64,000 nt of DNA, taken from IMG/VR virus record IMGVR_UViG_3300029859_000151. One strand, given 5' to 3'. This document shows positions 17,104 through 51,402 of the stretch, in pieces. The position numbers and the translations under genes were made by a program. Each line of letters begins with the position of its first letter. Position 1 is the stretch's first letter. The notes below the pieces were generated by a model. It did not search any database, was not told where the DNA came from, and saw only the letters and a list, made by a program, of their open reading frames with translations. This DNA is from a virus (Duplodnaviria > Heunggongvirae > Uroviricota > Caudoviricetes).

Positions 17104-17128
17104 ACCCACGATGGGAAGGAGAATAATT

Positions 17129-17620
17129 ATGATTGAAGAAAACAAAAACTTTTGGGAAAATTGTGGACATACATATGAGGAGCATGTTGATGTCGATAAT
17201 CAGGATTTGAAAAACCGTGTTATGTTTGGGACATATGAAAGCGGAAGATTTGATGGACAAGGTAAATCAATTTGTTCGCGTTTTTCATCAGAAAAAATTG
17301 CTAAAATGGCTATCGAAAGAACACTTGAAATAAGATGCTCTGAAATTGAAGAGTGGATGAAATTGGGCTATCAGGAAGAAATTGTTGTAACAGTGAATTT
17401 TAGTAAAGCTATTGGAGTAGGATATGTGAAAGGCACGAACTTACGAAAAGATCCTTATTTGATGTATTCTATTTGCATGGTGTTACGTGCAGATGCTCAT
17501 TTCCGTTCATATTCTATAGTAACAGCTTACCCAATACCGAATAGAAATGTTGGAAAGCAAATTGCTAAAGACAAAAAAGACTTTTATGAAGAGAGAAGAG
17601 CCAGAAGAACTCAGAGATAG
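17129..17620 (+). CDS. hypothetical protein (163 aa)
   Basis: ATG after GGGAAGGAGAATAATT. Confidence 0.5.
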   Translation: MIEENKNFWENCGHTYEEHVDVDNQDLKNRVMFGTYESGRFDGQGKSICSRFSSEKIAKMAIERTLEIRCSEIEEWMKLGYQEEIVVTVNFSKAIGVGYVKGTNLRKDPYLMYSICMVLRADAHFRSYSIVTAYPIPNRNVGKQIAKDKKDFYEERRARRTQR

Positions 17621-31237: not shown

Positions 31238-32770
31238 ATGTCATTATTAAATTTATCACTTATACCAATTATTGTTGCAGTATTAGTAATTGCATTACTT
31301 TGCATGGGATACGTGAAAGCGCCGCCGGATATGGCATATATTATTTCCGGTGTCAAGAAGAAGTCCAAAGTAGTCATCGGAAAAGCGAGTATTCGTATTC
31401 CATTTTTTGAGCGACTGGATAAGCTGAATCTACGGTTAATTCCAATTGACGTTAAGACAAGCAATGCTGTACCGACAGCAGACTACATCAATATCAATGT
31501 TGATGCAACTGTTAACATTAAGATCAGCAACGATCCAGAGAAGCTGCGGCTTGCGGCAGAGAATTTTTTAAATAAAAACACTGAGTATATTGCCGGGGTG
31601 GCAAGAGAGGTTCTTGAGGGTAATGTGCGTGAGATCGTCGGCAAGATGAAGCTCGAAGAGATGGTGTCTGACCGTCAGAAGTTTGCTAATCTGGTTAAGG
31701 AAAATGCAGAGCCGGATCTTGCAGCGATGGGACTCGATATTATTAGCTTCAATGTCCAGAATTTCGTGGATGGCAATGAGGTTATTGAAAATCTGGGTAT
31801 TGATAATATCGTAAAAATCAAGAAGAGTGCAGCGATTGCCCGTGCCGAGAGTGAGCGAGATATTAAAGTTGCTCAGGCAAATGCGGACAAGGAATCTAAT
31901 GATGCTGCCGTAGCCGCACAGACCGAAATCGCAAAGAAGCAGAATGAGCTTGCCATTAAGAAATCTGAACTTCAGATGGAAGCAGATACGAAAAAGGCTA
32001 TGGCTGATGCTGCTTATGAAATTCAGAAAGAGGAACAGCGTAAAACAATTGAGATCGCTACCGCAAATGCAGATATTGCAAAACAGGAGCGGGAAATTGA
32101 GTTGAAACAGAAGGAGGTTGCGGTCAAGGAGCAGTCTCTAGAGGCAGAGATTAAGAAACAGGCAGAGGCTGATAAGTATGCGGCACAGCAGAAAGCCGAT
32201 GCGGAGTTATATAAACGACAGAAAGAAGCAGAAGCAAAGAAATATGAAATGCAGCAGGAAGCAGAAGCTATGAAAGCGAAAGCAGAAGCAGAAAAATACG
32301 CTAAAGCACAGAATGCAGAGGGTATTCGCGCTATTGGACTTGCAGAAGCGGAAACTATTAAGGCGAAGTCGGTTGCAGAAGCTGAAGGTATCGAAAGAAA
32401 GGCAGAAGCACAGGCAAAGATGGGACAGGCGTCTGTAATTGACATGTTGACAGCTGTTATCCCGGAAGTGGCAAAGAGTGTAGCTGAGCCGTTAGCAAAA
32501 GTTGACAAGATCACAATGTATGGAGATGGTAATTCTACTAAATTAATTGGAGACATTACAAACTCTGTGACAAAAGTAATTGCTGGAGTAGGAGAATCAA
32601 CAGGAGTTGATATTTCCAAAATGGTAAAAGATTTTGCTGAAAAAACTAATGACAAGAAAGATGGTGATGTCATTGTAGACCTTGAGGCAAATGCGAACAC
32701 CAATGATAAAGCAATTGACACAAAGGATGATGACGATTCAGAGGATGTAGATTACAGAGAAGAGAAGTGA
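31238..32770 (+). CDS. SPFH/band-7 flotillin-like protein (YqiK/FloT-like)
   Basis: N-terminal TM helix, SPFH core (IPIDVKTSNAVPTADYININVDATV.., DRQKFANLVKE..) and a long Ala/Glu/Lys-rich coiled-coil (AEAEKYAKAQ..). Local GC is markedly higher than the rest of the window. Confidence 0.8.
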   Translation: MSLLNLSLIPIIVAVLVIALLCMGYVKAPPDMAYIISGVKKKSKVVIGKASIRIPFFERLDKLNLRLIPIDVKTSNAVPTADYININVDATVNIKISNDPEKLRLAAENFLNKNTEYIAGVAREVLEGNVREIVGKMKLEEMVSDRQKFANLVKENAEPDLAAMGLDIISFNVQNFVDGNEVIENLGIDNIVKIKKSAAIARAESERDIKVAQANADKESNDAAVAAQTEIAKKQNELAIKKSELQMEADTKKAMADAAYEIQKEEQRKTIEIATANADIAKQEREIELKQKEVAVKEQSLEAEIKKQAEADKYAAQQKADAELYKRQKEAEAKKYEMQQEAEAMKAKAEAEKYAKAQNAEGIRAIGLAEAETIKAKSVAEAEGIERKAEAQAKMGQASVIDMLTAVIPEVAKSVAEPLAKVDKITMYGDGNSTKLIGDITNSVTKVIAGVGESTGVDISKMVKDFAEKTNDKKDGDVIVDLEANANTNDKAIDTKDDDDSEDVDYREEK

Positions 32771-32993: not shown

Positions 32994-33066
32994 GGACCAT
33001 TAGTTCAGCTGGTAGAACGCTCGGCTCATAACCGGGAAGTCGTAGGTTCGAGTCCTACATGCTCCA
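32994..33066 (+). tRNA. tRNA-Met (anticodon CAT; elongator or Ile2-lysidine type)
   Basis: manual cloverleaf: acceptor GGACCAT/ATGCTCC (one mismatch), D-arm GTTC-AGCTGGTA-GAAC, anticodon loop CTCATAA, T-arm GTAGG-TTCGAGT-CCTAC, discriminator A. Confidence 0.75.
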
Positions 33067-33105
33067 TTTATATAATAGTTAAAAATTTATTTTTAAATAA
33101 AAACT

Positions 33106-33129
33106 TCTGTACCACTGCTGTACCGAAAA
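33106..33129 (+). promoter_or_regulatory. upstream element, tandem half-duplication (CTGTACCACTGCTGTACCGAAAAG)
   Basis: two CTGTACC copies 12 nt apart, 15 nt 5' of the promoter core at 33145. Confidence 0.4.
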
Positions 33130-33144
33130 GTTTTTAAAAATATT

Positions 33145-33156
33145 TCTGACATATTA
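33145..33156 (+). promoter_or_regulatory. phage promoter motif copy (in front of tRNA-Glu)
   Basis: TATTTCTGACATATTATATATGAAATC. Confidence 0.5.
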
Positions 33157-33172
33157 TATATGAAATCAAAAA

Positions 33173-33246
33173 GGCGCCTTGATCTAATGGTTAGTGATAT
33201 CGCTCTTTCACAGCGAAAATGCAGGGTTCGAGTCCCGCAGGCGTCA
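33173..33246 (+). tRNA. tRNA-Glu (anticodon TTC)
   Basis: acceptor GGCGCCT/AGGCGTC, anticodon stem TCGCT/AGCGA with loop CTTTCAC, T-loop TTCGAGT; the T-stem needs a bulged A (GC[A]GGG/CCCGC). Confidence 0.65.
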
Positions 33247-33370
33247 TTCTCTTCTTAAAAGAAGAGACGTTATGTAATAAAAAGTCGTACTATGTAATGG
33301 CCTCCTTTCTGGGATAGACATATTGGCCGGATGTATCTGTCCTCATCACAACCTAAACATAGGCGGCTAC

Positions 33371-33442
33371 GGGATATTAGCTCAGCGGAAGAGCAATCGA
33401 CTTTTAATCGATAGGTCTCGGGTTCGAATCCCGGATGTCCCA
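33371..33442 (+). tRNA. tRNA-Lys (anticodon TTT)
   Basis: acceptor GGGATAT/ATGTCCC, D-arm GCTC-AGCGGAA-GAGC, anticodon stem ATCGA/TCGAT with loop CTTTTAA, T-arm TCGGG-TTCGAAT-CCCGG. Confidence 0.8.
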
Positions 33443-33680
33443 TGATAGGTCTTTTGCCTTTAAAGGTTTTTTCCTTTATCGCAAAAGTGGCAACTTGTTT
33501 TAGGTGTTTTGATTCATCTAAGCAAGAAAAAAATCAGAAAAAAAAGATGTTGCGAAAGCGCGCGCAAGTAACGGCATCAGTTCACATCATTAATCGCCGA
33601 CTGATTTGGAATACCTTTGTTGGGTGTGAACAAATAACTTTGAAAAATAAGTAATTTGGAAAATAAGCAAAAACATATAT

Positions 33681-33771
33681 GATGCAGTACCGAAATGGTT
33701 ATAACGGCAATCCCTGCTAAGGATTTGTGCTGAATTGAGTAAGCATGGAGGTTCGAATCCTCTCTGCATCG
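33681..33771 (+). tRNA. tRNA-Ser (anticodon GCT), long variable arm
   Basis: acceptor GATGCAG/CTGCATC (perfect), anticodon stem ATCC/GGAT with loop CTGCTAA, variable arm TGTGCTGAATTGAGTAAGCAT, T-arm GGAGG-TTCGAAT-CCTCT, discriminator G. Confidence 0.75.
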
Positions 33772-33790
33772 TTATAACAATTTAATATAT

Positions 33791-33873
33791 GCCATATGTC
33801 CGGGTGGTTGAGGGAGCGGTCTTGAAAATCGTTGGCCTATAAAGGCTTGCAGGTTCGAATCCTGTGTATGGCG
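33791..33873 (+). tRNA. tRNA-Ser (anticodon TGA), long variable arm
   Basis: acceptor GCCATAT/GTATGGC, anticodon loop CTTGAAA, variable hairpin GCCT-ATAA-AGGC, T-arm GCAGG-TTCGAAT-CCTGT; D-arm non-canonical. Confidence 0.6.
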
Positions 33874-33909
33874 TTAAAAGAAAAAATATAAATATATTTT
33901 CTCTTTTTA

Positions 33910-33981
33910 TAATAAAGTAATGGGCATTCGCCAAGCGGTAAGGCACTGGATTTTGATTCCAGCATCCGTAGGTTCGAATCC
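33910..33981 (+). tRNA. tRNA-Gln (anticodon TTG)
   Basis: U1:A72 acceptor TGGGCAT/ATGCCCA typical of bacterial tRNA-Gln; anticodon stem CTGGA/TCCAG with loop TTTTGAT; T-arm GTAGG-TTCGAAT-CCTAC. Confidence 0.8.
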
Positions 33982-33988
33982 TACATGC

Positions 33989-34061
33989 CCAGTTAATATT
34001 CTCCTATAGCTCAGTTGGTAGAGCACACGACTGTTAATCGTGTTGTCGTAGGTTCGAGTCC
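33989..34061 (+). tRNA. tRNA-Asn (anticodon GTT)
   Basis: acceptor TCTCCTA/TGGGAGA, D-arm GCTC-AGTTGGTA-GAGC, anticodon stem CACGA/TCGTG with loop CTGTTAA, T-arm GTAGG-TTCGAGT-CCTAC. Confidence 0.8.
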
Positions 34062-34158
34062 TACTGGGAGAGTTAGCAATGTGAACGAGAGCACGGGATA
34101 GTTCTTAAAGCTGCAAATTTACGGGTTCGTAAAGCGAAAAAGCGCATTGCTTAAATAT

Positions 34159-34230
34159 TGCGGAGTAGAGCAGTGGCAGCTCGCAGGGTTCATAACCCTG
34201 AGGTCGCAGGTTCAAATCCTGCCTCCGCCA
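34159..34230 (+). tRNA. tRNA-Met (anticodon CAT), initiator-type
   Basis: 1:72 mismatch (U1 x C72), A11:U24 in the D-stem and three consecutive G:C pairs (GGG/CCC) closing the anticodon stem are the bacterial initiator signatures; anticodon loop TTCATAA; T-arm GCAGG-TTCAAAT-CCTGC. Confidence 0.7.
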
Positions 34231-34248
34231 TTTCAATTAATATAATTT

Positions 34249-34321
34249 ACGCCCAAGGTGATGTGGTTCGTTGCAACTGGCTTATATCCAGCGATTTTGG
34301 GTTCGATTCCTAATGGGCGCA
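34249..34321 (+). tRNA. tRNA-like sequence, possibly tRNA-Ile (TAT) or a degenerate tRNA
   Basis: good acceptor (CGCCCA/TGGGCG, 6/7), T-arm TTGGG-TTCGATT-CCTAA, anticodon stem CTGG/CCAG with loop CTTATAT; the D-arm pairs only via G-U and is non-canonical. Confidence 0.3.
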
Positions 34322-34628
34322 TTAAATTTCTTGGCATTTATCGTTTAGCGATATTGTAAGCCCTGTTACCGCATTTTGGTAGAGCCGACTATATAACGAC
34401 TCTAGTGCGCACGAAACTTAAATGCGGTATATCTATTAAACTCTGTTCCGGATTTCATATGATTTTCGGGACGAAATCCCAATCAAGAGTTTTGAACTGC
34501 AAACAGACGCAAATCAGTTTGGGTTTTAGGAGATATGGGTTTTTCTTATATAAATTATACCAACGCATTCAGTATCCATTATTTTGATGGATATTTTTTA
34601 TTTTTCATTTTTTTCTATTTTTTAAGTA

Positions 34629-37060: not shown

Positions 37061-37087
37061 TATTTTTATAATTAAAATCTGACATAT

Positions 37088-37099
37088 TGTTTTTAAGGA
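37088..37099 (+). promoter_or_regulatory. phage promoter motif copy (variant ..ATATTG)
   Basis: AAATCTGACATATTGTTTTTAAGG. Confidence 0.5.
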
Positions 37100-37172: not shown

Positions 37173-37508
37173 ATGGTAAAAAACAATTCCATTATTATAA
37201 ATAGTAAAGAATATATTGTAGGACAAAAATATAGAATATTTTCACCTTTAAATGCTCCGTATCTATATGTAAATCCAACTAATTTTGAAAATCAACAGAG
37301 ATTAAAAAATACATTAAAAAACAATAATAATGCTATTAATTATTATGTTGGCCGTTTGGTTCAAATTCCAAGAATGAAAGAGAACGGATATATTGGAAAT
37401 CTTATGTTTTTTGCAATGGATGATGTTATTTATGGAAATGGAGCATATTTACAGGCTGAACCAATCGATATGATTCGAGCCAATATAACAAAAATTAAAA
37501 AATACTAA
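37173..37508 (+). CDS. hypothetical protein (111 aa)
   Basis: RBS GATAAGGAGAAGGAAAAGAGG..ATG. Confidence 0.5.
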   Translation: MVKNNSIIINSKEYIVGQKYRIFSPLNAPYLYVNPTNFENQQRLKNTLKNNNNAINYYVGRLVQIPRMKENGYIGNLMFFAMDDVIYGNGAYLQAEPIDMIRANITKIKKY

Positions 37509-37639: not shown

Positions 37640-38914
37640 ATGGGACAAATTACATATAATACTATTTTTTCTGAAATCCAAAAATATATGCTTATGATGC
37701 AATGGGCCGAAACATTGATTCGATATTTGAAGGATAAGGGATACGCAGAAAATGATGAAAAAATTCTTTCGGCTAATTTTATTAGAAATACCGCATTTAC
37801 GGGATTACTAAGATGTAAATTGGATTATACATACAATGATACAAAAAACGAAATAAAGCTGATGTTAGACAATGTGATTTACTCTTGTCCAACAATTGAA
37901 ATTGTTAAAATTCTGGGAAAGGACGTTTATCAAATTTTAGAAAACGTTAATCCTGAAATCGTGAAACAGGCAGAAATAGAGTTGCAAGAAAAAACATCAT
38001 TATTAGAACGAGTAGAAAAAATAACAAAAACAGCAGAATTAAAAGATATTGAAGAAAACAAAAATAAGAAAGATGAGAATATCAAAGATACTAAACAATA
38101 TGAAAAAGCACCAGATGAAAAATCGAAAAAGAAAAATGGTTTAGCTGCTGATACCATAGTAGAAAACATAGAATTTCCTGCTAAAGAGAGTGACCCTAAA
38201 TCAAAAGAAGAAGAAACAACAAAAAAGCCAGAGAGGGTTAATGCTATCTATAATGACAATATCAAAGAAAATAATCAAAAACGTGAACAAAATGTATCGA
38301 ATAAACCAATTATTCGTGAATTAAGTTTTATGAATGTAGAACAAAAGACAAAGCACTTAAATTCATTTGTATATGAAAAATTTTTAATAAAAACTAAAAA
38401 TGTTGAAAGAACATATATTGCTTTCCCAATTAAGATTTATGAAAATGAAAATAATGCACCTTTTGTTTTGCTAGATATTTCTGATCCTAATAATTATAAG
38501 ACGGTTCCTCTTAACGATAATAAAATGGCTTATTTTACAATAGAAGAAATTGAGTTTTTGGCAAAAATTATATTTGTAAACGGTAAATTCAAAAGTATTG
38601 TCACAGAAAAAAATGGAGAAACACGGGCTTTTTCAATCTCAACAATTGATCATTCTTATTGCCATTCTCAAGAAGTAGGATATGGGCATATATGTTTTAA
38701 GTATCAAAAAGAATATATTCATATTTTCCCATTGGCTTCTCAAAATGATAAGACGGGAAATGCTCCTTTCATATATTTTATTACAGATGAAATGGGGAAG
38801 GTTATTGCAGATCCTCAAAAATATAATATTTCTGAAAAAGTTTTAATTAATGGTAAAGAACTAGAATTACTATGTTATTGGAAAGACCAATTATTGATAA
38901 GCGAATGTTTATAA
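37640..38914 (+). CDS. hypothetical protein (424 aa); paralog A of the 42644 protein
   Basis: N-terminus AFTGLLRCKLDYTYNDTKNEIKLMLDNVIYSCP aligns with IFAGLIREKLNYQYIQNSDDPQKDEIRLVIDGINYDCE of 42644; C-terminus HIFPLASQNDKTGNAP..PQKYNISEKVLINGKELELLCYWKDQLLISE aligns with HVFPLESFNEVGGNGNAK..PYNTKVVFGNGKYSMYNYWDGEYLVSE; K/E-rich low-complexity middle. Confidence 0.55.
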   Translation: MGQITYNTIFSEIQKYMLMMQWAETLIRYLKDKGYAENDEKILSANFIRNTAFTGLLRCKLDYTYNDTKNEIKLMLDNVIYSCPTIEIVKILGKDVYQILENVNPEIVKQAEIELQEKTSLLERVEKITKTAELKDIEENKNKKDENIKDTKQYEKAPDEKSKKKNGLAADTIVENIEFPAKESDPKSKEEETTKKPERVNAIYNDNIKENNQKREQNVSNKPIIRELSFMNVEQKTKHLNSFVYEKFLIKTKNVERTYIAFPIKIYENENNAPFVLLDISDPNNYKTVPLNDNKMAYFTIEEIEFLAKIIFVNGKFKSIVTEKNGETRAFSISTIDHSYCHSQEVGYGHICFKYQKEYIHIFPLASQNDKTGNAPFIYFITDEMGKVIADPQKYNISEKVLINGKELELLCYWKDQLLISECL

Positions 38915-38980
38915 TAAGCAAGAAAATAAGTAAGAAAAGAAGAAATTTAAAGGGGCGCTTTATTTTTTTTCTTTTCTTAT

Positions 38981-38992
38981 ATTTTTTCTATC
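38981..38992 (+). promoter_or_regulatory. phage promoter motif copy
   Basis: CTATCTGACATATTAAATATGAGG. Confidence 0.55.
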
Positions 38993-39043
38993 TGACATAT
39001 TAAATATGAGGCTTAGAAATAAAAGAAAATGGGAGGATTTTTT

Positions 39044-39265
39044 ATGACTATTCCAGTAGCTTTAAGTAAAAGTGAAATTAAGAATTTTGCAAAAAAGTTT
39101 TCATACTATATTGGATTTGTGAATCGAGAAGGCAAAGATGACGAAACAGAACTTGACGCTCTTAGTAAAAAGGATCTCAATGAATTATGGAAATCTTTGC
39201 ATGAAGAATTGAACTGTGAAGTAGATTCTATTACATACATTGAGAGAGTTTCATATGAAGCATAA
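39044..39265 (+). CDS. hypothetical protein (73 aa)
   Basis: ATG after AAAATGGGAGGATTTTTT. Confidence 0.45.
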   Translation: MTIPVALSKSEIKNFAKKFSYYIGFVNREGKDDETELDALSKKDLNELWKSLHEELNCEVDSITYIERVSYEA

Positions 39266-39384
39266 TTAAAAATAAAACAAGGCAGCAAGGCAGGAGAGAA
39301 ATGTTCTTCTGCCTTGTTATTTTTATGTGTTTTTTACGAACGATGCAAATGACTGCAAAGAATCGACAATTTATCGCCGCGCGC

Positions 39385-39497
39385 TCGTGACTTTAGTCAT
39401 GTGAGGCTTCACATTCTACACGGTTAAAACCGTGGAATTTCTCGCCCTAGAAAGATTGTAAAGACGAGTTGATGAAAACAGCTCGTCTTTATTTTAC
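39385..39497 (+). ncRNA. candidate small RNA (three hairpins + intrinsic terminator) in a locally GC-richer non-coding island
   Basis: hairpins TGAC-TTTA-GTCA, ATGTGA-GGCT-TCACAT, ACGG-TTAAAA-CCGT, then terminator AAAGACGAG-TTGATGAAAACAG-CTCGTCTTTATTTT; no ORF. Confidence 0.3.
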
Positions 39498-39502
39498 TTA
39501 AA

Positions 39503-39514
39503 ATCTGACATATT
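39503..39514 (+). promoter_or_regulatory. phage promoter motif copy (variant ..ATATTG)
   Basis: AAATCTGACATATTGATAATAAAT. Confidence 0.5.
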
Positions 39515-39562
39515 GATAATAAATAAAATTATTAAATTGTAAATGAAGATTGGAGAATAATT

Positions 39563-40375
39563 ATGAATAAAAACACATGTTATAAAATTTTAAATGAAAC
39601 ATTGATTGATAAGAAAGAAAAAGACACACCATTTTTACCAGGAATATTATATCGAACAGGATATGAACTAACCAGTACCTTAAATGGATTCCATTATGTT
39701 AAAAAGTTAGAAGATCTTGAACCGTATTTGTCTTGTGAAAATCCATACAAAAATATTGTTTTTGAATGTGAACATGGAGATGAATTTACCAATGATGGCG
39801 TTCTCTTTGCAAGCGACTCTATTCAAATTATCCGAGAAGTACCATTTAATGAAATCATTAAATATGTAAAAATCAATCAGGCAAGATTGAAAACCGAAAA
39901 TCCTAAATTTTTAATCAAACTTGGCTTTTTCCATAAAGAATTCGCAAAAAGCCGAGACGTATCTATTAGGGGATTAGTTGGGAGATGTGGAGATTCTGAA
40001 ATTCGGAAAGAATTGCGTAAGGATTTTAATCCCATAGTTCGGGAACAGGTTGCATTAGCGGGACATTATGAAGATTTGATGATCTTACGAAAGGACCGAA
40101 AAAAAATGGTTCGCGTTGCTGTTGCAAAAGCTGGAAACAGCAGAGTTAATGCATCTATGATCCATGACCCGGCATATGAAGTACGGATAGCTATTTTAGA
40201 TACTGCGGAACCTAAAATCATTAGCTTAATGCGAAAAGACGAAAACTGGCAAGTGCGAATGGCAGTTGTAAATGTTTGCGATATGGAAGGTCTTGAAGAA
40301 CTATGCATGGACAAAAATTATTTAGTAAGAAAAAATGCATGGATGAAAAAAGAAGCATTAAAAGAGAAGGAATAA
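39563..40375 (+). CDS. HEAT-repeat (PBS-lyase HEAT-like) protein
   Basis: C-terminal half contains 5-6 tandem about 30-aa repeats of the form ..VR.AVA.AG/..VR.AIL..../..VRMAVV../..VRKNAW.. Confidence 0.6.
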   Translation: MNKNTCYKILNETLIDKKEKDTPFLPGILYRTGYELTSTLNGFHYVKKLEDLEPYLSCENPYKNIVFECEHGDEFTNDGVLFASDSIQIIREVPFNEIIKYVKINQARLKTENPKFLIKLGFFHKEFAKSRDVSIRGLVGRCGDSEIRKELRKDFNPIVREQVALAGHYEDLMILRKDRKKMVRVAVAKAGNSRVNASMIHDPAYEVRIAILDTAEPKIISLMRKDENWQVRMAVVNVCDMEGLEELCMDKNYLVRKNAWMKKEALKEKE

Positions 40376-40389
40376 ATCCTTCTCTTTTT

Positions 40390-40404
40390 TGTATACCGAA
40401 AAAA
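40390..40404 (+). promoter_or_regulatory. upstream element variant (GTATACCGAAAAAA)
   Basis: 11 nt 5' of the promoter core at 40416. Confidence 0.4.
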
Positions 40405-40415
40405 GAAAAAGGATA

Positions 40416-40427
40416 TCTGACATATTA
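40416..40427 (+). promoter_or_regulatory. phage promoter motif copy
   Basis: GGATATCTGACATATTAAAAATAGG. Confidence 0.55.
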
Positions 40428-40455
40428 AAAATAGGCAAAAAAGAGGAGAAGCAAG

Positions 40456-42573
40456 ATGCAGATAAAAGGTTTTTTAACAAAAGAAATTTTTAGAAATTAT
40501 CAAAACGGATATTCTATTTTTTCATTAAAAACAGATGATAAGACAATAACGTGTGCTGGCATAATACAAAAATTCCCATATTATACACCTTTATGTTTAG
40601 AAGGTGAATATGGACGAAATTCTAAATATCCAGAAACATTCATAATTGATTCTTTTATGGGATGGAATACAACAGAACAAAATGACATTTTATATTTAGC
40701 GAATGGTTTAGATATTAGTGGACTAACAATAAAAAAAGCAGAAAAAATCATAAAAACCTTAAATATGCCTGTGTTTGAAGCTGTCAAAAAAGCTAATTCT
40801 GAAAAAGAATTTGCAACGAAAATACCTAACATTGATCAAAAAATCAGTCATCAAATTTACACAAAAATCAAGCAAACAATAGATTTCCGAACACTTTTCG
40901 ATGAAATTGTTCATGCTGGAGGTAATTATTCTGATGCTATAAAAGTATTTGAAATATATGCAGAAAAAAGTCAAGAAATGTTATTGAAGCATCCATATAT
41001 TGTTGGAACACTTTTGGAATGGAAATTTGATATGTGTGATCAGATAGCAAAAGAACATTCTATCAAAAGTCTATCATTAGAAAGAGCAAAAGGAATTTGC
41101 AAATATATTATGACACAATCTTTAAATGACGGAAATACATATGTGACACTTGAAGAATTTTCATATAGAGCAAATCATCTTTTAGCAAACAGCCCATTAG
41201 GAACAGTCCCAATTTCATTTTTGCTATCATTTTTACTTACTGAAAAACAATATGTGCATCATGTGAGAAAGGGAGAAATGCGATTTGCATTAAAAACTGT
41301 TCACGATAATGAAAATATTCTTGTGAAAAACATTTCAAGATTATCACAAACCTCAAAAACATATAATTTTGATGAAAAAGCAATCGAAAGCATTGAAAAG
41401 GAAACTAACATTAATTTTTCAAATGAGCAAAAGAAATCTTTTGATTCTTTAAAAACATCAGGAATCAAAATTATTACAGGGGGTCCTGGATGTGGAAAGA
41501 CGACAACGATTGATGGCTTAATTCACTACATTAAAGAAGTATACAAAGAAGATGTTTGTTTATGTGCTCCAACAGGATGTGCAGCACAGCATATGGCAGA
41601 AAAATCGGGAATGCAAGCAAGTACATTTCATTATTTATTAGGTATCAGACCGTTTGACACAGGTTGTATTCCTGATTTTAATAGTCAGGCTCAACTTCCT
41701 TATCATTTTTTTATCATTGACGAATTCTCTATTGCAGATATTGAGATGACAGCATTGTTATTTGATGCGATTCCTAATGATTCTTGCATAATTATTGTTG
41801 GAGATCCAGATCAGTTAGAAAGTGTTGGACCAGGAAATGTTTTAGAAGATTTTATTACTTCTGGGCTTTTTGAAGTATATCATTTGAATACAATCTTTAG
41901 GCAAAAGAAAGGTTCAAACATTATTCTAAATGCCAAAAAAGCAGCGGTAGGAAATTCAGAATTTACCGAAGGAGAAGACTTTGCCTTAAAACATTTTGAT
42001 AATGAAATGGATGCTGTAAATGCCTGTATTTCGTATTCACTGCAAAAAGAAGAAGGGGAATGCCAGGTGCTTTCTCCCATGAAAAAAGAAAAAGCCGGGA
42101 CAAAATATTTAAATAAAGCAATTCAATCGATTCGACATAAAGGCGAAATGGGAGCGAAAGTATACGGAGACAATGAGTTTTATGTTAATGATCGAATCAT
42201 AACTATAAAAAATAATCGAAAAGATAATTATTTTAATGGAGAACCAGGAATTGTGAAATTTATTGATGATGAAGGAATGTTGCTTCGCTTTGATAATGGA
42301 GATGAAATTTATTTAAAAAATTCAGCATTAGATGAAGTAATCCCGTCCCACGCATTAACAATTCATAAATCTCAGGGAAGCGAATATCCCGAAGTTGCAA
42401 TTCTATTGACAGAAAATGCCAAAAGAATGATTAATCGTAAGATTTTATATACCGCGATCACAAGAGCAAAAGAAAAGGTTAGCATTTTTTATCAAGATGG
42501 CGTTTTGGGACAAATTCCTGCATCAAAGAAGAGGCATACAGAATTATCGGACGAACTGATACTGCTGTATTAA
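40456..42573 (+). CDS. RecD2-like SF1B DNA helicase
   Basis: motif I ITGGPGCGKTTTI, Ia LCAPTGCAAQHM, II FFIIDEFSIAD, III IIIVGDPDQLESVGPG, V/VI ALTIHKSQGSEYPEVAI .. YTAITRAKEKV; N-terminal OB/HhH-like region. Confidence 0.8.
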   Translation: MQIKGFLTKEIFRNYQNGYSIFSLKTDDKTITCAGIIQKFPYYTPLCLEGEYGRNSKYPETFIIDSFMGWNTTEQNDILYLANGLDISGLTIKKAEKIIKTLNMPVFEAVKKANSEKEFATKIPNIDQKISHQIYTKIKQTIDFRTLFDEIVHAGGNYSDAIKVFEIYAEKSQEMLLKHPYIVGTLLEWKFDMCDQIAKEHSIKSLSLERAKGICKYIMTQSLNDGNTYVTLEEFSYRANHLLANSPLGTVPISFLLSFLLTEKQYVHHVRKGEMRFALKTVHDNENILVKNISRLSQTSKTYNFDEKAIESIEKETNINFSNEQKKSFDSLKTSGIKIITGGPGCGKTTTIDGLIHYIKEVYKEDVCLCAPTGCAAQHMAEKSGMQASTFHYLLGIRPFDTGCIPDFNSQAQLPYHFFIIDEFSIADIEMTALLFDAIPNDSCIIIVGDPDQLESVGPGNVLEDFITSGLFEVYHLNTIFRQKKGSNIILNAKKAAVGNSEFTEGEDFALKHFDNEMDAVNACISYSLQKEEGECQVLSPMKKEKAGTKYLNKAIQSIRHKGEMGAKVYGDNEFYVNDRIITIKNNRKDNYFNGEPGIVKFIDDEGMLLRFDNGDEIYLKNSALDEVIPSHALTIHKSQGSEYPEVAILLTENAKRMINRKILYTAITRAKEKVSIFYQDGVLGQIPASKKRHTELSDELILLY

Positions 42574-42592
42574 AATAATTTTAGTAAAGATA

Positions 42593-42604
42593 TCTGACAT
42601 ATTA
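42593..42604 (+). promoter_or_regulatory. phage promoter motif copy
   Basis: GATATCTGACATATTAAATTATAG. Confidence 0.55.
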
Positions 42605-42643
42605 AATTATAGAATATACAATGTATAGAAAGGAGATTGCATT

Positions 42644-44224
42644 GTGGCAGAAACAAAAACCATTGTTAATCACACGATATTTGAAAAAAAACATCATTAC
42701 ATGAGCGCAATGAAAGAAATTGAAATATTGAAACGCCAGGCGGAATATGAAATACTTCAAGGTGGATTTTCAAAAGAAAGATTAAATGAAATATACAAAA
42801 CACGCTCTTTAATTTTTGCTGGATTGATACGTGAAAAATTAAATTATCAATATATCCAAAATTCAGACGATCCACAAAAAGATGAAATTCGATTAGTTAT
42901 TGATGGTATAAATTATGATTGTGAAGCAAAATCTTTATTAAATGTAATGAAGAATGATTTTGCGGTCATGATTCCAGAAAGTGTTGGCCGGTTAAAATTT
43001 GAAAAAGAGACCACCGACAAAGAACAAGCGCCAAATAAATTAAAAAAAAGAAATGAGGCAACAGATAATGACAAGATCTTAGATTTGAAAAAAGATAATA
43101 CTGAAACCAAAATAAAAACAGAATCAATAGAGCCTGAAGCTGACAACGAAACAATAACAGACATTTCTGGAGCTGCAACATCTGAAAAAATTTCTAATGA
43201 ATCAATTGTTGCAGCTGTTATGCCGGAAGCAGCAAGCATTGATGAAAATAAAGCGAAATCTTCAGATTTTATTGAGGAAGACCATTTAGAAGAAAAGAAC
43301 AGAATTAAGAATGATAAATTTGTATATGATATATGCAATGTGTCGGCAATAATGGATGGGGGAAGAAGAGGAGAGGACTTTACATTTATTATTGCTCCAT
43401 TATATCTATATGAAGATAACACAAAACCAGATATTGTCGTGTATGCAAAAAAAGAAAGTTCTTATGTTTACGAGGTTACTCAAACAGAAAAAAAGGTTCT
43501 TGAGATTAACATTGAGGGCCATACTTTCTTAGTACATGGAAGCTTTCATTCTGGAGAATTCAAATCTTTCATTCATGCGGCAGGAGTGACATTAAGCACA
43601 GGATACAATCTTAAAATTGATACTGAAAAGCATAGGAATGCTTTAAAGCAATACACCCCGAATAATAAAAATGGTCATATTTGTTATGAAGCTGAGAATA
43701 TTAAATTTCATGTATTCCCATTAGAATCTTTTAATGAAGTTGGTGGAAACGGAAACGCGAAATGCTTGGTTGTTTCAGAATACAACACTGGAAGAGAAGT
43801 ACAAATATTGCCTGATCCGTATAATACAAAAGTTGTTTTTGGAAATGGAAAATATTCAATGTATAATTATTGGGATGGAGAATACCTTGTTTCTGAAATC
43901 ATAAAAAATGTTCAAGAAACTGAAGAAGAAAATGAAAAAAGAAAGGGTATGGATTTCCTGGCATTAGCTGACAAGAGCTTAAGAAAATTAATAAAATTCG
44001 TAATCTTAATTTTAATTGGAGTGGGATTATTTATTGGAGTACATAAAGTTAATTCCGATCCTGTATTAAAAGAAAAGGTGATTAGTCAAATAGAAAAAAT
44101 TGTTGATAGCAATAAAGAGAAAAAAAATAAGGAACACGAATCTATTTTTTCTAATATTGATGGAATGAGTACAGAAACATTGATTCCTGAAGATACAGGA
44201 GTGCAGGAGATGCAAGAAGAATAG
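42644..44224 (+). CDS. hypothetical protein (526 aa); paralog B of the 37640 protein, with C-terminal TM helix
   Basis: GTG start after GAAAGGAGATTGCATT; shares N- and C-terminal conserved blocks with the 37640 protein; acidic/Ser-rich middle; hydrophobic FVILILIGVGLFIGV near the C-terminus. Confidence 0.55.
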   Translation: MAETKTIVNHTIFEKKHHYMSAMKEIEILKRQAEYEILQGGFSKERLNEIYKTRSLIFAGLIREKLNYQYIQNSDDPQKDEIRLVIDGINYDCEAKSLLNVMKNDFAVMIPESVGRLKFEKETTDKEQAPNKLKKRNEATDNDKILDLKKDNTETKIKTESIEPEADNETITDISGAATSEKISNESIVAAVMPEAASIDENKAKSSDFIEEDHLEEKNRIKNDKFVYDICNVSAIMDGGRRGEDFTFIIAPLYLYEDNTKPDIVVYAKKESSYVYEVTQTEKKVLEINIEGHTFLVHGSFHSGEFKSFIHAAGVTLSTGYNLKIDTEKHRNALKQYTPNNKNGHICYEAENIKFHVFPLESFNEVGGNGNAKCLVVSEYNTGREVQILPDPYNTKVVFGNGKYSMYNYWDGEYLVSEIIKNVQETEEENEKRKGMDFLALADKSLRKLIKFVILILIGVGLFIGVHKVNSDPVLKEKVISQIEKIVDSNKEKKNKEHESIFSNIDGMSTETLIPEDTGVQEMQEE

Positions 44225-44334: not shown

Positions 44335-44940
44335 ATGAATATTTTGGTTAACAGCAGATTAAAGAGAAAGATTCAAATAGAGAATCGTAAGCAAAGACGA
44401 GGCATTTATTATTTGTGGCTTTTTGAAAAAATTTCTTTTGCATTGATTATTGCTTATATAGTATTATTTCCAATCTACTGTACAGTAACAGGATATTTAG
44501 TTTCGACAAATATGAGAACTGGAGAACTTAGCTACTTTTTAGTGGCAAGTGAAACAACTATTTATGGAGCGATGGGTTTGGCTACTGTATTATTTATCTA
44601 TGTACTTAGGGTAAGGCTAGAGCACGTTTTCATAGGTGGTCGTGTTGATGAGAAGATAGAGATTGCTGACGATAAGTTGGTTTATGCATTTAGAATAAAA
44701 TATCAGACACCAGAAAATGAGAGAAATATCGTTGTGATTGATTTGAGCAGAATAAACAAATTAAGCTATAACGAGAAATTATCAGAAATAAGCATTGATG
44801 GAATGATGATTGAAAGAACAGTTAAGGCGTCTACCAATGTTCAAAGAATAAACATATCAAATATGGTGGATAGCAACATAAAGATAAATGATTACTTTAC
44901 ACCTTCATTGTATGAAGTATTAAAATCAAAGATCAACTAG
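44335..44940 (+). CDS. membrane protein (201 aa)
   Basis: RBS GATTGGAGGTTAAAT-ATG; two N-terminal TM helices then a soluble beta-rich C-terminal domain. Confidence 0.5.
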   Translation: MNILVNSRLKRKIQIENRKQRRGIYYLWLFEKISFALIIAYIVLFPIYCTVTGYLVSTNMRTGELSYFLVASETTIYGAMGLATVLFIYVLRVRLEHVFIGGRVDEKIEIADDKLVYAFRIKYQTPENERNIVVIDLSRINKLSYNEKLSEISIDGMMIERTVKASTNVQRINISNMVDSNIKINDYFTPSLYEVLKSKIN

Positions 44941-45121: not shown

Positions 45122-45817
45122 ATGCTATATATTACAGGAGATACTCATGGAATGATCGATATACAAAAAATAAAAGATATGGCAGGAACACTTCATAAAG
45201 AAGACTATTTGCTGATCACAGGAGATTTTGGAGTTATTTGGCGTAATGAATCTGATGATTTAGAAGAATCTTTAATTTCCATTTATGAAAATCTTGGTTG
45301 CACAGTGTTGTGGATTGACGGCAATCATGAGAATCATGTTAGAATAAACAACTTGCCTGTTGAAGAATGGCATGGAGGAAAAACTCACAGAATTTCCGAA
45401 AACATTATTCATCTTATGCGTGGAGAGATTTTTGAAATAGCCGGTTATAAAATTTTTACTATGGGAGGCGCCGCTTCTACAGATAAAGAATGGCGTATAC
45501 CTGATGTTAGCTGGTGGAAAGAAGAAATCCCTTGTGAAGAAGAGAAAAAGAATGCGTTGAATAATTTAAAGAAAGCAGAATATAATATTGATTTCGTAAT
45601 CACACATACTGCTCCATCTCATATTATAAAAGAAATGAATGCATTTTATCGTATAGATGAGTATACTGATTGGCTAGAAGGTTTGTCTAAAAAGATGAAT
45701 TTTTTTCAATGGTATTTTGGACATTTCCATATTGATCGAACATTTGAAAATGGAAAATACATTGCTTGCTTTGATGAAATCGCTATGCTGCCAGAGAAAA
45801 TAAATAACAATAAATAG
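45122..45817 (+). CDS. calcineurin-like metallophosphoesterase (second copy)
   Basis: YITGDTHG, LLITGDFG, IDGNHENH, VITHTAP, FGHFH. Confidence 0.7.
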   Translation: MLYITGDTHGMIDIQKIKDMAGTLHKEDYLLITGDFGVIWRNESDDLEESLISIYENLGCTVLWIDGNHENHVRINNLPVEEWHGGKTHRISENIIHLMRGEIFEIAGYKIFTMGGAASTDKEWRIPDVSWWKEEIPCEEEKKNALNNLKKAEYNIDFVITHTAPSHIIKEMNAFYRIDEYTDWLEGLSKKMNFFQWYFGHFHIDRTFENGKYIACFDEIAMLPEKINNNK

Positions 45818-49503: not shown

Positions 49504-50166
49504 ATGAAGATTATTAAAAGAAATGGAGAAGAAAAGCCATTTCAAGCTGAAAAAATTGCAAAAGCGATTAGCAAGGCAAATGAAAGTGTGATCGATTATG
49601 AACGATTGAGCGAATCTCAAATTGCCGAAATTGTCTCAAATGTGACAAAAGCCTGTGAGAACATGAGCCATAGCCCTAATGTGGAAGAAATTCAGGATAT
49701 GGTTGAAAATCAGATTATGCAGCAAGGGGCATTTTCTGTAGCAAGAAATTATATTACTTATCGTTATAAACGAGAAATCGTTCGGAAATCAAATACTACT
49801 GATCAACAGATTCTTAGTTTAATTGAGTGTGATAATGAGGAAATTAAACAGGAGAATTCTAATAAGAACCCAACAGTGGTCAGCGTGCAAAGAGATTATA
49901 TGGCCGGGGAAGTCAGTAAGGATCTAACAAAAAGATTTTTTTTACCACCAGATATTGTCGAAGCGCATGAAAATGGACTTATACATTTTCATGATGCTGA
50001 TTATTTCTGCCAGAGAATGAACAATTGTGGACTGGTTAATTTGGAGGATATGCTTCAGAACGGAACTGTTATTAGTGGAACAATGATTGAGAAACCTCAT
50101 AGTTTTTCGACAGCCTGCAATATCGCAACACAAGTAATTGCTCAAGTAGCGAGCAGTCAGTACGGT
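49504..50166 (+). CDS. nrdD: anaerobic ribonucleoside-triphosphate reductase NrdD, exon 1 (ATP-cone + N-terminal part)
   Basis: MKIIKRNGEEKPFQAEKIAKAISKA is an ATP-cone start typical of NrdD. The ORF runs to ..VASSQYG, then the frame hits a stop 8 codons later inside the intron. Predicted exon end at T50166. Confidence 0.75.
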
Positions 50167-51402
50167 TTAAAGAGATCTGCCGTACTTTAAAAACAATATT
50201 AACCATCAGAGATGGGGTTATGCCTTAAATGGCATGGCTAACGAGGTAGGTTGGAAAAGCTGATCTCGTGATCATTTTGATAATTAACGATTTTTAAAAA
50301 TAAAGAGGTGGAATGCCTATGGCAAAAACAACAAGTGCAACAAGTGCAACAAATGCAGAAAAATCTGAGCTTATGAAATCTGCGATTTTTCAATTATATA
50401 GTAAAGAGGGAAGATCAATTTGTTATATTAGTCGGTTATTGGAAATCAACAGGAAGACGCTTTCAGAAAAAATAGAAGAATGGGATTTTCCAAAACCAAA
50501 ACCGACAAAATATGTAAAACCGTCAACCCAAAAATTTATTAATAAAAATAGAGCTTTGATAAAATCTCGTTTGGATAATGATATTTCCATAACAAAAATT
50601 GCGGAGGAATTGCAAGTTGAGCGAAGTTTTCTTCAAAAAACAATTATTCCAAATGACGAAATTTTGTATAAGGCAAAATGTGATTATATAAAAAGAAAAC
50701 AATCAAATGCAGAAGAGCGCAGAAATGAAATATTGAAAAATTCAAGGCAGGAATATATTTTTAGTGATTTGCCCGGGGAGATTTGGAGACCTATTTTAGG
50801 GTACGAAGGATATATGGTATCCAACAAAGGACGAATTAAAAAATATGCAAAAAGATATAAGGCATATTATTTAATTGCCCAAACTCCAAACAAAAATAAT
50901 GGGCGCTTATACGTTTGTTTGTTTAAGGGGAATAAAAGAAAAAATATGCAAGTTGCAAGAATTGTCGCACATGCATTTGTGGATGGATTTGATGGCACAC
51001 ACAATACTGTAAATCACGAAGATGGGAATGTCCAAAACAATGAAGCCACAAATCTTACTTGGACAAGCCAATCAGAAAATAATAAACATTCGTATACAAA
51101 ACTAAATCGGCAAAAAGTGAATTTTAAGAAATATAAGTTTAAAAAAATTATCTATAAAGAAAAGTATGAGTTTAAAACGGTTGCTGCATTGGCGCGTTTT
51201 TTAGGAAAATCTGAAACACAGACTAGACGTTATTTAGATTATCCGGAAAAACATAATTTGCAATTATGTAATTAACAAAATGATTGTAACGACTACCGTA
51301 AGCTATCAGCGATGATAGTTGAAACATATTGGCGGATATAATAACAATATCTGCAAGAAATAGTCTAAGCTATGTGTAGAATACGAACTTACATAGTATT
51401 TG
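50167..51402 (+). other. group I intron (predicted) interrupting nrdD, carrying an HNH endonuclease ORF
   Basis: 5' exon ends in U and the intron ends in G (G51402). Joining 50166 to 51403 restores a continuous frame ..IAQVASSQYG|GQSISLAHLAPF.. Structured GC-richer segments lie at 50190-50310 and 51276-51400. Confidence 0.6.
50313..51275 (+). CDS. HNH homing endonuclease (intron-encoded), with NUMOD/AP2-like DNA-binding region
   Basis: IWRPILGYEGYMVSNKGRIKKY; HNH motif VNHEDGNVQNNEATNLTWTSQSENNKHS; N-terminal HTH-like segments. Confidence 0.75.
   Translation: MPMAKTTSATSATNAEKSELMKSAIFQLYSKEGRSICYISRLLEINRKTLSEKIEEWDFPKPKPTKYVKPSTQKFINKNRALIKSRLDNDISITKIAEELQVERSFLQKTIIPNDEILYKAKCDYIKRKQSNAEERRNEILKNSRQEYIFSDLPGEIWRPILGYEGYMVSNKGRIKKYAKRYKAYYLIAQTPNKNNGRLYVCLFKGNKRKNMQVARIVAHAFVDGFDGTHNTVNHEDGNVQNNEATNLTWTSQSENNKHSYTKLNRQKVNFKKYKFKKIIYKEKYEFKTVAALARFLGKSETQTRRYLDYPEKHNLQLCN

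What the first reader, a model, noticed from the sequence alone, without database searches (positions are those of the whole stretch)
37640..44224. Cassette: paralog A - small ORF - HEAT-repeat protein - RecD2-like helicase - paralog B
Two proteins (424 and 526 aa) share conserved N-terminal blocks (..GLLR.KL.Y.Y...NEI.L..D...Y.C..) and C-terminal blocks (H.FPL.S......GNA....PD.Y......NGK......YW....L.SE), separated by divergent K/E- or D/S-rich linkers. They bracket a HEAT-repeat protein and a RecD2-type 5'-3' helicase. Paralog B ends in a TM helix. Gene-pair duplication around a helicase plus a HEAT scaffold suggests a dedicated DNA-processing complex, for example helicase loading/anchoring at the membrane or a replication-initiation module. 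The paralog family has no motif I can assign.
Basis: seen in the sequence. Interest (0 to 1): 0.6.

Follow-up and report, generated by a model that had tools for sequence, protein, structure and literature searches.

The report
Orphan paralog pair flanking RecD2 helicase
Two genes flanking a RecD2 helicase are real, ancient paralogs of an undescribed, apparently non-enzymatic protein family found in large mobile elements of gut bacteria, but the five-gene "cassette" around them is a strain-specific arrangement rather than a dedicated helicase machine.

Summary
A (37640-38914, 424 aa) and B (42644-44224, 526 aa) are paralogs. The N domains match at 29% identity (E 5e-11) and the C domains at 26% (E 1e-11). 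The charged linkers do not match.

The "cassette" is not a unit. Each gene has its own copy of an element-wide promoter-like 11-mer (38 copies in the window), often with terminators. Strains 98% identical carry an AAA_5/VWA gene pair between A and the HEAT gene. A 47-66%-identical lineage lacks the HEAT and small ORFs. More distant elements have a single family member with no helicase beside it.

Conserved links are 111-aa gene→A and RecD2→B→metallophosphoesterase. Elsewhere members follow SSB or RecG genes.

Most likely these are non-catalytic adaptors or tethers acting on ssDNA-processing machinery, with B at the membrane. That mechanism is inferred, not shown.

The parts
37078..37088 (+). 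Promoter-like motif TCTGACATATT upstream of the 111-aa gene. There is no copy before A, so this is the likely start of a 111aa-A transcription unit.
   Evidence: 38 exact copies in the window, 0.06 expected; longer consensus TCTGACATATTAAATAT
37173..37508 (+). 111-aa protein, the conserved upstream partner of A-type members
   Evidence: Homologs lie directly upstream of A in three lineages (42-50% identity; 7-17 nt gap in L025 and L002). No family hit apart from a weak Gar1-like barrel match.
37640..38914 (+). Paralog A (424 aa): N domain aa 1-105 (37640-37954), charged disordered linker aa 106-230, tandem beta-sandwich C domain aa 231-424 (38330-38911)
38991..39001 (+). Promoter-like motif before the small ORF. 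It is also the left breakpoint against strains that carry the AAA_5 gene.
39029..39265 (+). Small ORF (78 aa, or 73 aa from the internal start). It is 86-88% identical in L007/L008, where it follows an AAA_5 gene, and is absent from L009.
39284..39318 (+). Intrinsic-terminator-like hairpin after the small ORF (15 bp stem plus T run)
39458..39492 (+). Terminator-like hairpin. It is also the right breakpoint: sequence to its right aligns at 98.5-99.8% with L005/L007, where a VWA gene lies to the left.
39504..39514 (+). Promoter-like motif before the HEAT gene
39563..40375 (+). HEAT-repeat protein (270 aa) with a sub-threshold DUF7666-like N-terminus. It is variable: absent in the L009 lineage.
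40360..40388 (.). Hairpin AAAAGAGAAGGA-loop-TCCTTCTCTTTT overlapping the end of the HEAT gene, terminator-like on both strands
40416..40426 (+). Promoter-like motif before RecD2
40456..42573 (+). RecD2/YrrC-type SF1B helicase (705 aa). Helicase motifs are intact on reading the sequence (GGPGCGKTT, IIDEFS, GDPDQL, HKSQGSE, TAITRAK).
   Evidence: 64% identical ortholog in the same position in L009.
42593..42603 (+). Promoter-like motif before B
42644..44224 (+). Paralog B (526 aa): N domain aa 1-115, acidic linker aa 116-221, C domain aa 222-420 (43307-43903), TM helix about aa 446-466 (43979-44041), conserved ~60-aa tail
44335..44940 (+). 201-aa hydrophobic ORF, strain-variable. It is absent from L005 and L008 and interrupts the B-phosphoesterase pair.
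45122..45817 (+). Calcineurin-like metallophosphoesterase (231 aa) with no promoter motif of its own. It follows B in every relative (12-nt gap in L009), so it is the likely co-transcribed partner of B.

Best explanation
Shown. A and B are two old paralogs of an undescribed modular protein family.
- Each has a conserved ~105-aa alpha/beta N-terminal head, a variable acidic disordered spacer, and a ~195-aa C-terminal domain made of two tandem beta-sandwich repeats.
- No catalytic-looking residues are conserved across the family.
- The family is confined, as far as these searches show, to a supergroup of low-GC (about 28-36%) large extrachromosomal elements from gut and rumen metagenomes. A remote N-domain-only relative lies on Butyrivibrio megaplasmid pCY360.
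- In these elements the family sits in the DNA replication and recombination backbone.
- The five genes are not an operon or a fixed module. They form separately promoted units: [111aa-A], [small ORF], [HEAT], [RecD2], [B-(201aa)-phosphoesterase].
- The stretch between A and RecD2 is a gain/loss hot spot (AAA_5, VWA, HEAT, small ORF).

Inferred. The family acts as a non-enzymatic adaptor or tether. The conserved head would bind a conserved partner in the SSB-centred ssDNA-processing machinery; its gene neighbours are SSB, RecJ, RecG and RecD2. The long spacer would act as a leash. The C domain and/or a C-terminal membrane anchor would fix the other end. On this reading B, which is tail-anchored, holds its partner near the membrane, and A is the soluble counterpart working with the 111-aa protein. 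Functionally this resembles membrane-bound organisers of replication such as phage phi29 p16.7, without any homology to them.
For: - Paralogy and domain limits.
- Family size and lack of annotation: 263 representatives at E<=1e-3 and 47 at E<=1e-30. No Pfam, PHROG, PADLOC or NCBIfam model matches A or B, and Pfam finds only GGDEF inserts among 86 members. No PDB sequence hit for the C-domain profile; best hit for the N-domain profile E 0.33.
- Only P, F, P and W are invariant or nearly so across 86 members, and all domains are acidic.
- Modularity among 155 members: N+C 90, N+C+TM 7, N+TM without C 10, N-GGDEF-C 9.
- Neighbourhoods: RecD2->B->MPE in the window and L009; RecJ-111aa->A in three lineages; SSB->member (L015, L018, L021); RecG->member (L019/L020 and pCY360); NfeD directly downstream.
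- RecJ, RecG and YrrC/RecD2 are documented partners of the SSB C-terminus in B. subtilis (PMC3000357).
- Transcription units and variability.
Against: - No direct evidence for any binding partner.
- The neighbourhoods are heterogeneous. In L001, L012 and L024 the member lies between a zinc-ribbon protein and a HipA_C-like kinase, downstream of a T2SSE/VirB11-like ATPase. That points as much to signalling or secretion as to DNA processing.
- Most members (90 of 155) have no membrane anchor.
- The window's own SSB (57242-58033) lacks the usual acidic C-terminal tip.
- Adjacency inside a replication module of a same-strand, gene-dense element is weak functional evidence.
Confidence: 0.4

Rival explanations
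1. One reading: A, small ORF, HEAT, RecD2 and B form one dedicated complex that loads or anchors the RecD2 helicase, or a replication-initiation module.
For: RecD2->B adjacency and the A...RecD2-B order are conserved at 47-66% protein identity. Other members follow RecG-type helicases. B has a membrane anchor.
Against: HEAT and the small ORF are absent in L009. AAA_5 and VWA genes are present or absent between near-identical strains. Each gene has its own promoter-like motif and several have terminators. Single-copy members in L001, L012, L015, L018, L021 and L024 have no adjacent helicase. The proteins are acidic and match no loader or initiator family.
Confidence: 0.1
2. Signalling scaffold. 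The N and C domains are sensor or dimerisation modules of a c-di-GMP-type signalling protein. A and B are derivatives in which the catalytic GGDEF insert has been replaced by a disordered spacer.
For: 11 of 155 members carry a GGDEF domain with an intact GGDEF motif exactly in the spacer position. HipA_C-like kinase genes follow the member in three elements.
Against: About 90% of members, including A and B, lack GGDEF. No c-di-GMP receptor or phosphodiesterase (PilZ, EAL, HD-GYP) was seen in the neighbourhoods examined. GGDEF forms are confined to one subgroup of B-like sequences, so the insert looks derived rather than ancestral.
Confidence: 0.15
3. Anti-defence or host-takeover decoy. These would be acidic, fast-evolving early proteins, possibly DNA or protein mimics, encoded beside SSB as in the leading regions of conjugative plasmids.
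For: Strongly acidic spacers and domains. Very variable spacer length of 29-517 aa. SSB directly upstream in three contexts. The family is restricted to mobile elements. There is a chance-level match of the N-domain profile to T7 Ocr (E 0.33).
Against: The Ocr match is not significant. The N domain is well conserved across very divergent elements, which is unusual for arms-race proteins. Membrane anchors and a large folded beta domain are not typical of known mimics. No PADLOC or anti-defence family hit.
Confidence: 0.12
4. Envelope, secretion or partition accessory. The family would be part of the T2SSE/VirB11-like ATPase apparatus (conjugation or pilus) or of ParM-type segregation.
For: In L001, L012 and L024 the member lies a few kb downstream of the ATPase. 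Signal peptidase, ALP_N/ParM, a weak T4SS-pilin-like ORF and NfeD occur nearby in L021, L015 and pCY360. The window has a flotillin gene at 31238-32770.
Against: A and B have no signal peptide on reading their N-termini. In the window they lie 11 and 16 kb from the ATPase, among DNA-metabolism genes. No secretion or partition family hit.
Confidence: 0.1

Closest known systems
Phage phi29 p16.7, a membrane-anchored organiser of phage DNA replication in Bacillus (from my own knowledge; not checked in the paper library)
   Same: A small non-enzymatic protein, encoded with replication genes of a Firmicute mobile element, that tethers replication components to the membrane through one TM helix and a coiled or extended region. 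This is the functional analogy proposed for B and for the N+TM members.
   Different: No sequence or fold relationship was detected. The p16.7 anchor is N-terminal and its soluble domain binds DNA. B's anchor is C-terminal and its domains are acidic. The analogy is an inference, not a membership claim.
RecD2/YrrC SF1B helicases (TIGR01448; Pfam OB_YrrC, HHH_RecD2, AAA_30, SH3_13, UvrD_C_2)
   Same: The 705-aa protein at 40456-42573 has the complete domain order and intact motifs. YrrC is a known partner of the SSB C-terminus (PMC3000357).
   Different: It scores 490 bits against the curated cutoff of 500. It is one of two divergent RecD2 paralogs in the window; the other, at 54334-56943, is 30% identical.
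FAIM (Fas apoptosis inhibitory molecule) tandem beta-sandwich domains, PDB 2kw1 and 3mx7
   Same: Best structural neighbours of the C domain. Each FAIM domain matches about one repeat, and FAIM is also a tandem of two similar beta-sandwiches. The C domain is an internal duplication.
Butyrivibrio megaplasmids (pCY360, NC_014389) and 'Hodor' gut megaplasmids (PMC12934698)
   Same: pCY360 shares RecJ-like (31%), topoisomerase (26%), T2SSE ATPase (38%) and the 326-aa protein (28%) with the window. It also encodes an N-domain-only relative directly after RecG + a 128-aa ORF. L019/L020, which carry a distant family member, have 44% GC, Rep_3 and a sortase-like gene, as reported for Hodors.
   Different: The window is 32% GC and showed no Rep_3, ParA/B, VirB4 or sortase in its 64 kb. 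Hodor G1/G2 are 44-47% GC. The pCY360 match covers only the N domain and its E-value is inflated by compositional bias.

Membership tests
RecD2/YrrC SF1B helicase | Domain order OB_YrrC - HHH_RecD2 - AAA_30/AAA_19 (Walker A/B) - SH3_13 - UvrD_C_2 | tested here: met
   (every domain above its Pfam cutoff except SH3_13, 38.3 against 41); motifs read from the translation
RecD2/YrrC SF1B helicase | Score at or above the NCBIfam TIGR01448 equivalog cutoff (500 bits) | tested here: not met
   490.1 bits, near full-length match (6-689 of the protein against 2-698 of 713). Narrowly below the cutoff, so this is a divergent RecD2.
HEAT-repeat proteins | Pfam HEAT (PF02985) above the gathering score | tested here: met
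   35.2 bits against a cutoff of 23.5. HEAT_2 and DUF7666 are below their cutoffs.
Any curated protein family, for A and B | Significant match in Pfam-A, PHROGs, PADLOC, NCBIfam or PDB sequences | tested here: not met
   Pfam scan of 86 family members finds only GGDEF inserts.
GGDEF diguanylate cyclases | GGDEF domain with a GG[DE]EF motif | tested here: not met
   A and B have none. 11 of 155 relatives have an intact one in the spacer.
Helicase loaders and replication initiators (DnaC/DnaI, DnaB/DnaD, gp59, Rep families) | Profile match to a loader or initiator domain, and a basic or DNA-binding character | tested here: not met
   No such Pfam, NCBIfam or PHROG hit for A, B, HEAT or the small ORF. 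pI is 4.7-6.0 for all parts of A and B.
phi29 p16.7-like membrane replication organisers | Single TM anchor plus a soluble domain that binds DNA or terminal protein and localises replication at the membrane | not testable with these tools
   A C-terminal TM helix is present in B and in 17 of 155 relatives. Binding and localisation need experiments. No homology is claimed.
   PHROG scan of 55 window ORFs returns only DNA-metabolism, transposase and HNH families. This covers only the 64-kb window, so the whole element remains open.
Hodor conjugative megaplasmids (PMC12934698) | GC 44-47%, Rep_3, ParA/ParB/ParM, VirB4/VirD4, multiple sortases | tested here: not met
   Window GC is 32% and none of these genes was detected in the window. 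The rest of the element was not available.

The most novel reading that the evidence does not exclude
The A/B family is a new class of modular leash proteins: a conserved head, an acidic spacer, and a beta-sandwich and/or membrane anchor. It would organise SSB-linked DNA processing (RecD2, RecJ, RecG) at the membrane in a so far undescribed clade of low-GC gut megaplasmid-like elements that run on their own promoter code (TCTGACATATTAAATAT). In the GGDEF-bearing variants the same head and tail would couple that DNA-processing state to c-di-GMP synthesis.
Probability: 0.12. Interest if true: 0.7.

Novelty: new variant of a known kind. Interest (0 to 1): 0.4.

Why it matters
If the tether idea is right, these proteins would show how very large plasmid-like elements of gut Clostridia position their replication or ssDNA-processing enzymes, which is almost unstudied for these elements.

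Three results stand whatever the mechanism turns out to be:
- A sizeable orphan family (263 representatives) now has defined domain limits, a confident C-domain model without a structural neighbour, and a catalogue of architectures.
- The region is a clear case of gene turnover between near-identical strains, with one breakpoint just after a repeated promoter-like motif and the other at a terminator-like hairpin.
- The 11-mer gives a testable promoter code shared across a diverse clade of elements.

The helicase, HEAT and phosphoesterase genes themselves are ordinary.

Tried and rejected
- Word-indexed homology searches with alignments A1 and A3 returned only 5 proteins each, probably swamped by low-complexity words. 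The exhaustive profile search was what revealed the family.
- The N-domain profile against PDB gave T7 Ocr at E 0.33 over 30 residues. I treat this as chance.
- Pattern scans for relatives found none in IMG/VR viral contigs or in GTDB genomes. tblastn of B against the phage and plasmid collections found no match, and blastn of the region against phages found no match.
- The GC-richer 128 nt between the two terminators (39330-39457) was tested as a possible RNA. Its fold z-score is -0.02, it has no Rfam hit and no plasmid match, so I dropped it.
- Identification with the Hodor megaplasmids was considered and rejected for the window on GC content and the lack of marker genes.
- The small upstream partners of A (111 aa) and of B-like singletons (about 130-aa zinc-ribbon proteins) were compared and are unrelated.
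Full report
**1. What is at the coordinates**

The window is about 32% GC and nearly all genes are on the + strand.
- A, 37640-38914, 424 aa.
- A small ORF, 39029-39265, 78 aa.
- A 270-aa HEAT-repeat protein, 39563-40375.
- A 705-aa helicase, 40456-42573.
- B, 42644-44224, 526 aa, GTG start.

Pfam gives HEAT (35.2 bits against a cutoff of 23.5) plus a sub-threshold DUF7666 N-terminus for the 270-aa protein. It gives the full RecD2/YrrC architecture for the helicase. NCBIfam TIGR01448 (RecD2) scores 490 bits against a cutoff of 500.

**2. Is the paralogy real?**

Yes. BLASTP of A against B gives E 1e-16 over about 420 residues. Split into parts, the N domains give 29% identity (E 5e-11) and the C domains 26% identity (E 1e-11). 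The charged linkers are not significantly similar (E 0.49).

A six-frame HMM search shows that A and B are the only carriers of these domains in the window.

One correction: B's hydrophobic helix is about aa 446-466 and is followed by a ~60-aa tail that is conserved in B-like relatives.

**3. The family**

Two word-indexed searches found only five proteins each. An exhaustive HMMER profile search of 1.84 billion representatives found 263 at E<=1e-3, 106 at E<=1e-10 and 47 at E<=1e-30.

No curated library recognises A or B or their two domains: Pfam, PHROGs, PADLOC and NCBIfam scans of A and B give no family, a Pfam scan of 86 members finds only GGDEF inserts, and profile searches of PDB sequences give nothing significant.

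There are A-like and B-like subfamilies. A is 35-44% identical to P0003, P0004 and P0009 but about 23% identical to B. B is 47-48% identical to P0006 and P0007. The duplication is therefore old.

**4. Structure**

The full-length AF2 model of A is mediocre (pLDDT 63). It does show a folded N domain (two helices, a three-stranded sheet, a helix, then a long helix), a disordered stretch at 119-232, and a beta-rich C domain.

The C domain predicted alone with 39 homologs is confident (pLDDT 92.8, pTM 0.88). It is an internal duplication of a ~95-aa beta-sandwich (hhalign 96.9%, E 2e-10).

Across 86 members only P, F, P and W are invariant or nearly invariant. All three regions are acidic, with median pI 5.1 (N domain), 5.35 (C domain) and 4.45 (spacer). 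This looks like a binding or structural protein, not an enzyme or a DNA binder.

**5. Modularity**

Among the 155 retrieved members the architectures are:
- N+C: 90
- N+C+C-terminal TM: 7 (B's type)
- N+TM with no C domain: 10
- N only: 7
- C only: 30
- With a GGDEF domain and an intact GGDEF motif in the spacer: 11

Spacer length ranges from 29 to 517 aa. The constant element is the N-terminal head on a flexible leash. The far end varies between a beta-sandwich domain, a membrane anchor, or both.

**6. The 'cassette' is not a unit**

(a) Transcription signals. The 11-mer TCTGACATATT occurs 38 times in the window against 0.06 expected. Copies are oriented like the downstream gene and nearly all lie in intergenic DNA upstream of a start codon. 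The longer consensus is TCTGACATATTAAATAT. The motif recurs in divergent relatives: 9 copies in L009, 5 in L001, 2 in L021.

In the region it precedes the 111-aa gene (37078), the small ORF (38991), HEAT (39504), RecD2 (40416) and B (42593). It does not precede A, the 201-aa ORF or the phosphoesterase. Terminator-like hairpins lie at 39284-39318, 39458-39492 and 40360-40388.

The inferred units are [111aa-A], [small ORF], [HEAT], [RecD2] and [B-(201aa)-phosphoesterase].

(b) Strain variation. Strains about 98% identical (L007, L008) carry an AAA_5 MoxR/CobS-like gene (487 aa), the small ORF (86-88% identical) and a CobT-like VWA gene (722 aa) between A and HEAT. L005 shows VWA-HEAT-RecD2-B. 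The window and L006 lack both genes. The left breakpoint is just after the promoter motif at 38991, at window 39010. The right breakpoint is at the hairpin at 39458. The 201-aa ORF is also strain-variable.

(c) A divergent lineage. L009/L010 (47-66% protein identity) has RecJ - 133aa - A - VWA - RecD2 - B - phosphoesterase. It has no HEAT and no small ORF.

(d) More distant elements carry one family member in other settings:
- SseB-like -> zinc-ribbon -> member -> HipA_C-like kinase, downstream of a T2SSE ATPase (L001, L012, L024).
- SSB -> member -> NfeD (L015-L018).
- SSB -> N+TM member (L021).
- RecG-like helicase -> member, with Rep_3 nearby (L019/L020).

What is conserved is 111aa->A (three lineages, 42-50% identity, 7-17 nt gaps in L025 and L002) and RecD2->B->phosphoesterase (12-nt B-phosphoesterase gap in L009).

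**7. What kind of element?**

The window encodes:
- RecJ, two RecD2 paralogs, a UvrD/PD-(D/E)XK protein, an atypical SSB, a topoisomerase and a split NrdD.
- dNMP kinases, a flotillin, a T2SSE/VirB11-like ATPase and a TnpB.
- Nine tRNAs.

No phage structural family was found among 55 ORFs. The family was not found in IMG/VR, GTDB genomes or the phage and plasmid collections.

The best named relatives of backbone genes are on Butyrivibrio proteoclasticus megaplasmid pCY360: ATPase 38%, RecJ-like 31%, topoisomerase 26%, the 326-aa protein 28%. pCY360 also encodes an N-domain-only relative just after RecG.

A recent preprint describes 'Hodor' gut megaplasmids that had been mistaken for huge phages (PMC12934698). 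L019/L020 (44% GC, Rep_3, sortase-like gene) resemble them. The window (32% GC) does not.

I therefore regard the element as a large plasmid-like extrachromosomal element of gut Clostridia. Phage or phage-plasmid status is not excluded, because only 64 kb was examined.

**8. Mechanism**

Shown: a non-catalytic-looking, acidic, modular protein pair. One member is tail-anchored. Both are embedded among genes whose products in B. subtilis are partners of the SSB C-terminus (RecJ, RecG, YrrC/RecD2; PMC3000357), or next to SSB itself.

Inferred: the head binds a conserved component of that machinery, the spacer is a leash, and the C domain and/or TM fixes the location. On this reading B would hold its partner, most plausibly RecD2 and/or the co-transcribed phosphoesterase, at the membrane, and A would work with the 111-aa protein near RecJ. 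This is functionally like phi29 p16.7 (my own knowledge) but unrelated to it.

I put about 0.4 on this overall account and only about 0.25-0.3 on the tether mechanism itself. None is excluded. The last is the least compatible with the variability data.

**9. Novelty and verdict**

The helicase, HEAT protein and phosphoesterase are ordinary. The paralog family is new in that no library or solved structure covers it, and it now has defined domains, a good C-domain model and a map of architectures and neighbourhoods. Its function is unproven.

I rate it a new variant of a known kind, meaning accessory adaptor proteins in the replication modules of mobile elements, rather than categorically new, because nothing here demonstrates a new mechanism. 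Interest is 0.4. The element-wide promoter code and the element clade itself may be the more rewarding leads.

Noticed in passing
window, 38 sites (e.g. 311, 7641, 24497, 34629, 40416, 61162); also L009, L001, L021: The exact 11-mer TCTGACATATT (longer consensus TCTGACATATTAAATAT) occurs 38 times against 0.06 expected. It is oriented like the downstream gene and nearly always lies upstream of a start codon. It is shared by relatives whose proteins are only 25-65% identical. It is probably an element-specific promoter, perhaps read by the sigma-70-like factors seen in related loci.
   Followed up: partly
window 32994-34322: An array of nine tRNA genes (Met, Glu, Lys, Ser x2, Gln, Asn, Met, Ile-UAU) between the flotillin gene and recJ.
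   Followed up: no
window 49504-52944 (insertion about 50146-51397): nrdD is split into 228-aa and 514-aa ORFs by a 1.25-kb insertion carrying a NUMOD4/HNH homing-endonuclease ORF (50313-51275). The gene is intact in L007 (98% identical strain) and in L009. No Rfam intron family matches, so whether this is an intron or a plain split gene is unresolved.
   Followed up: partly
L007 2841-6802; L008; L005 3-2165; L009 5574-7700: An AAA_5 (MoxR/CobS-like) plus CobT-like VWA gene pair is present between A and the HEAT gene in near-identical strains and absent from the window. In the window the left breakpoint falls just after the promoter-like motif at 38991 and the right one at the terminator-like hairpin at 39458.
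   Followed up: yes
window 54334-56943: A second, larger RecD2-type helicase (869 aa, about 30% identical to the one in the finding), 12 kb downstream and next to DUF4317 and SSB genes.
   Followed up: no
window 57242-58033: An atypical 263-aa SSB-family protein with cysteine pairs (possible zinc ribbons) and no acidic C-terminal tip.
   Followed up: no
window 31238-32770; L015 4272-4733; L018 3416-3883: The window has a flotillin/SPFH gene. In other elements an NfeD gene (the usual SPFH partner) lies directly downstream of the family member. This may link the family to membrane microdomains.
   Followed up: no
window 3841-5034 and 17111-17620: A TnpB/IS605 OrfB-type gene, and a protein with a CdiA-CT RNase A-like toxin domain.
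   Followed up: no
L019/L020 (ERR10101468, ERR13266396): A distant family member (818 aa) lies after a RecG-like helicase on 44%-GC contigs with Rep_3, SSB, a sortase-like gene, PhoH/PIN and a sigma factor. These features are similar to the 'Hodor' gut megaplasmids of PMC12934698. The identity was not tested.
   Followed up: partly
L013 4785-5720 (Butyrivibrio proteoclasticus pCY360, WP_013282897.1): The only relative found in a cultured organism: a 312-aa hypothetical protein that matches the N domain only. It lies after RecG and a 128-aa ORF and before signal peptidase I.
   Followed up: partly
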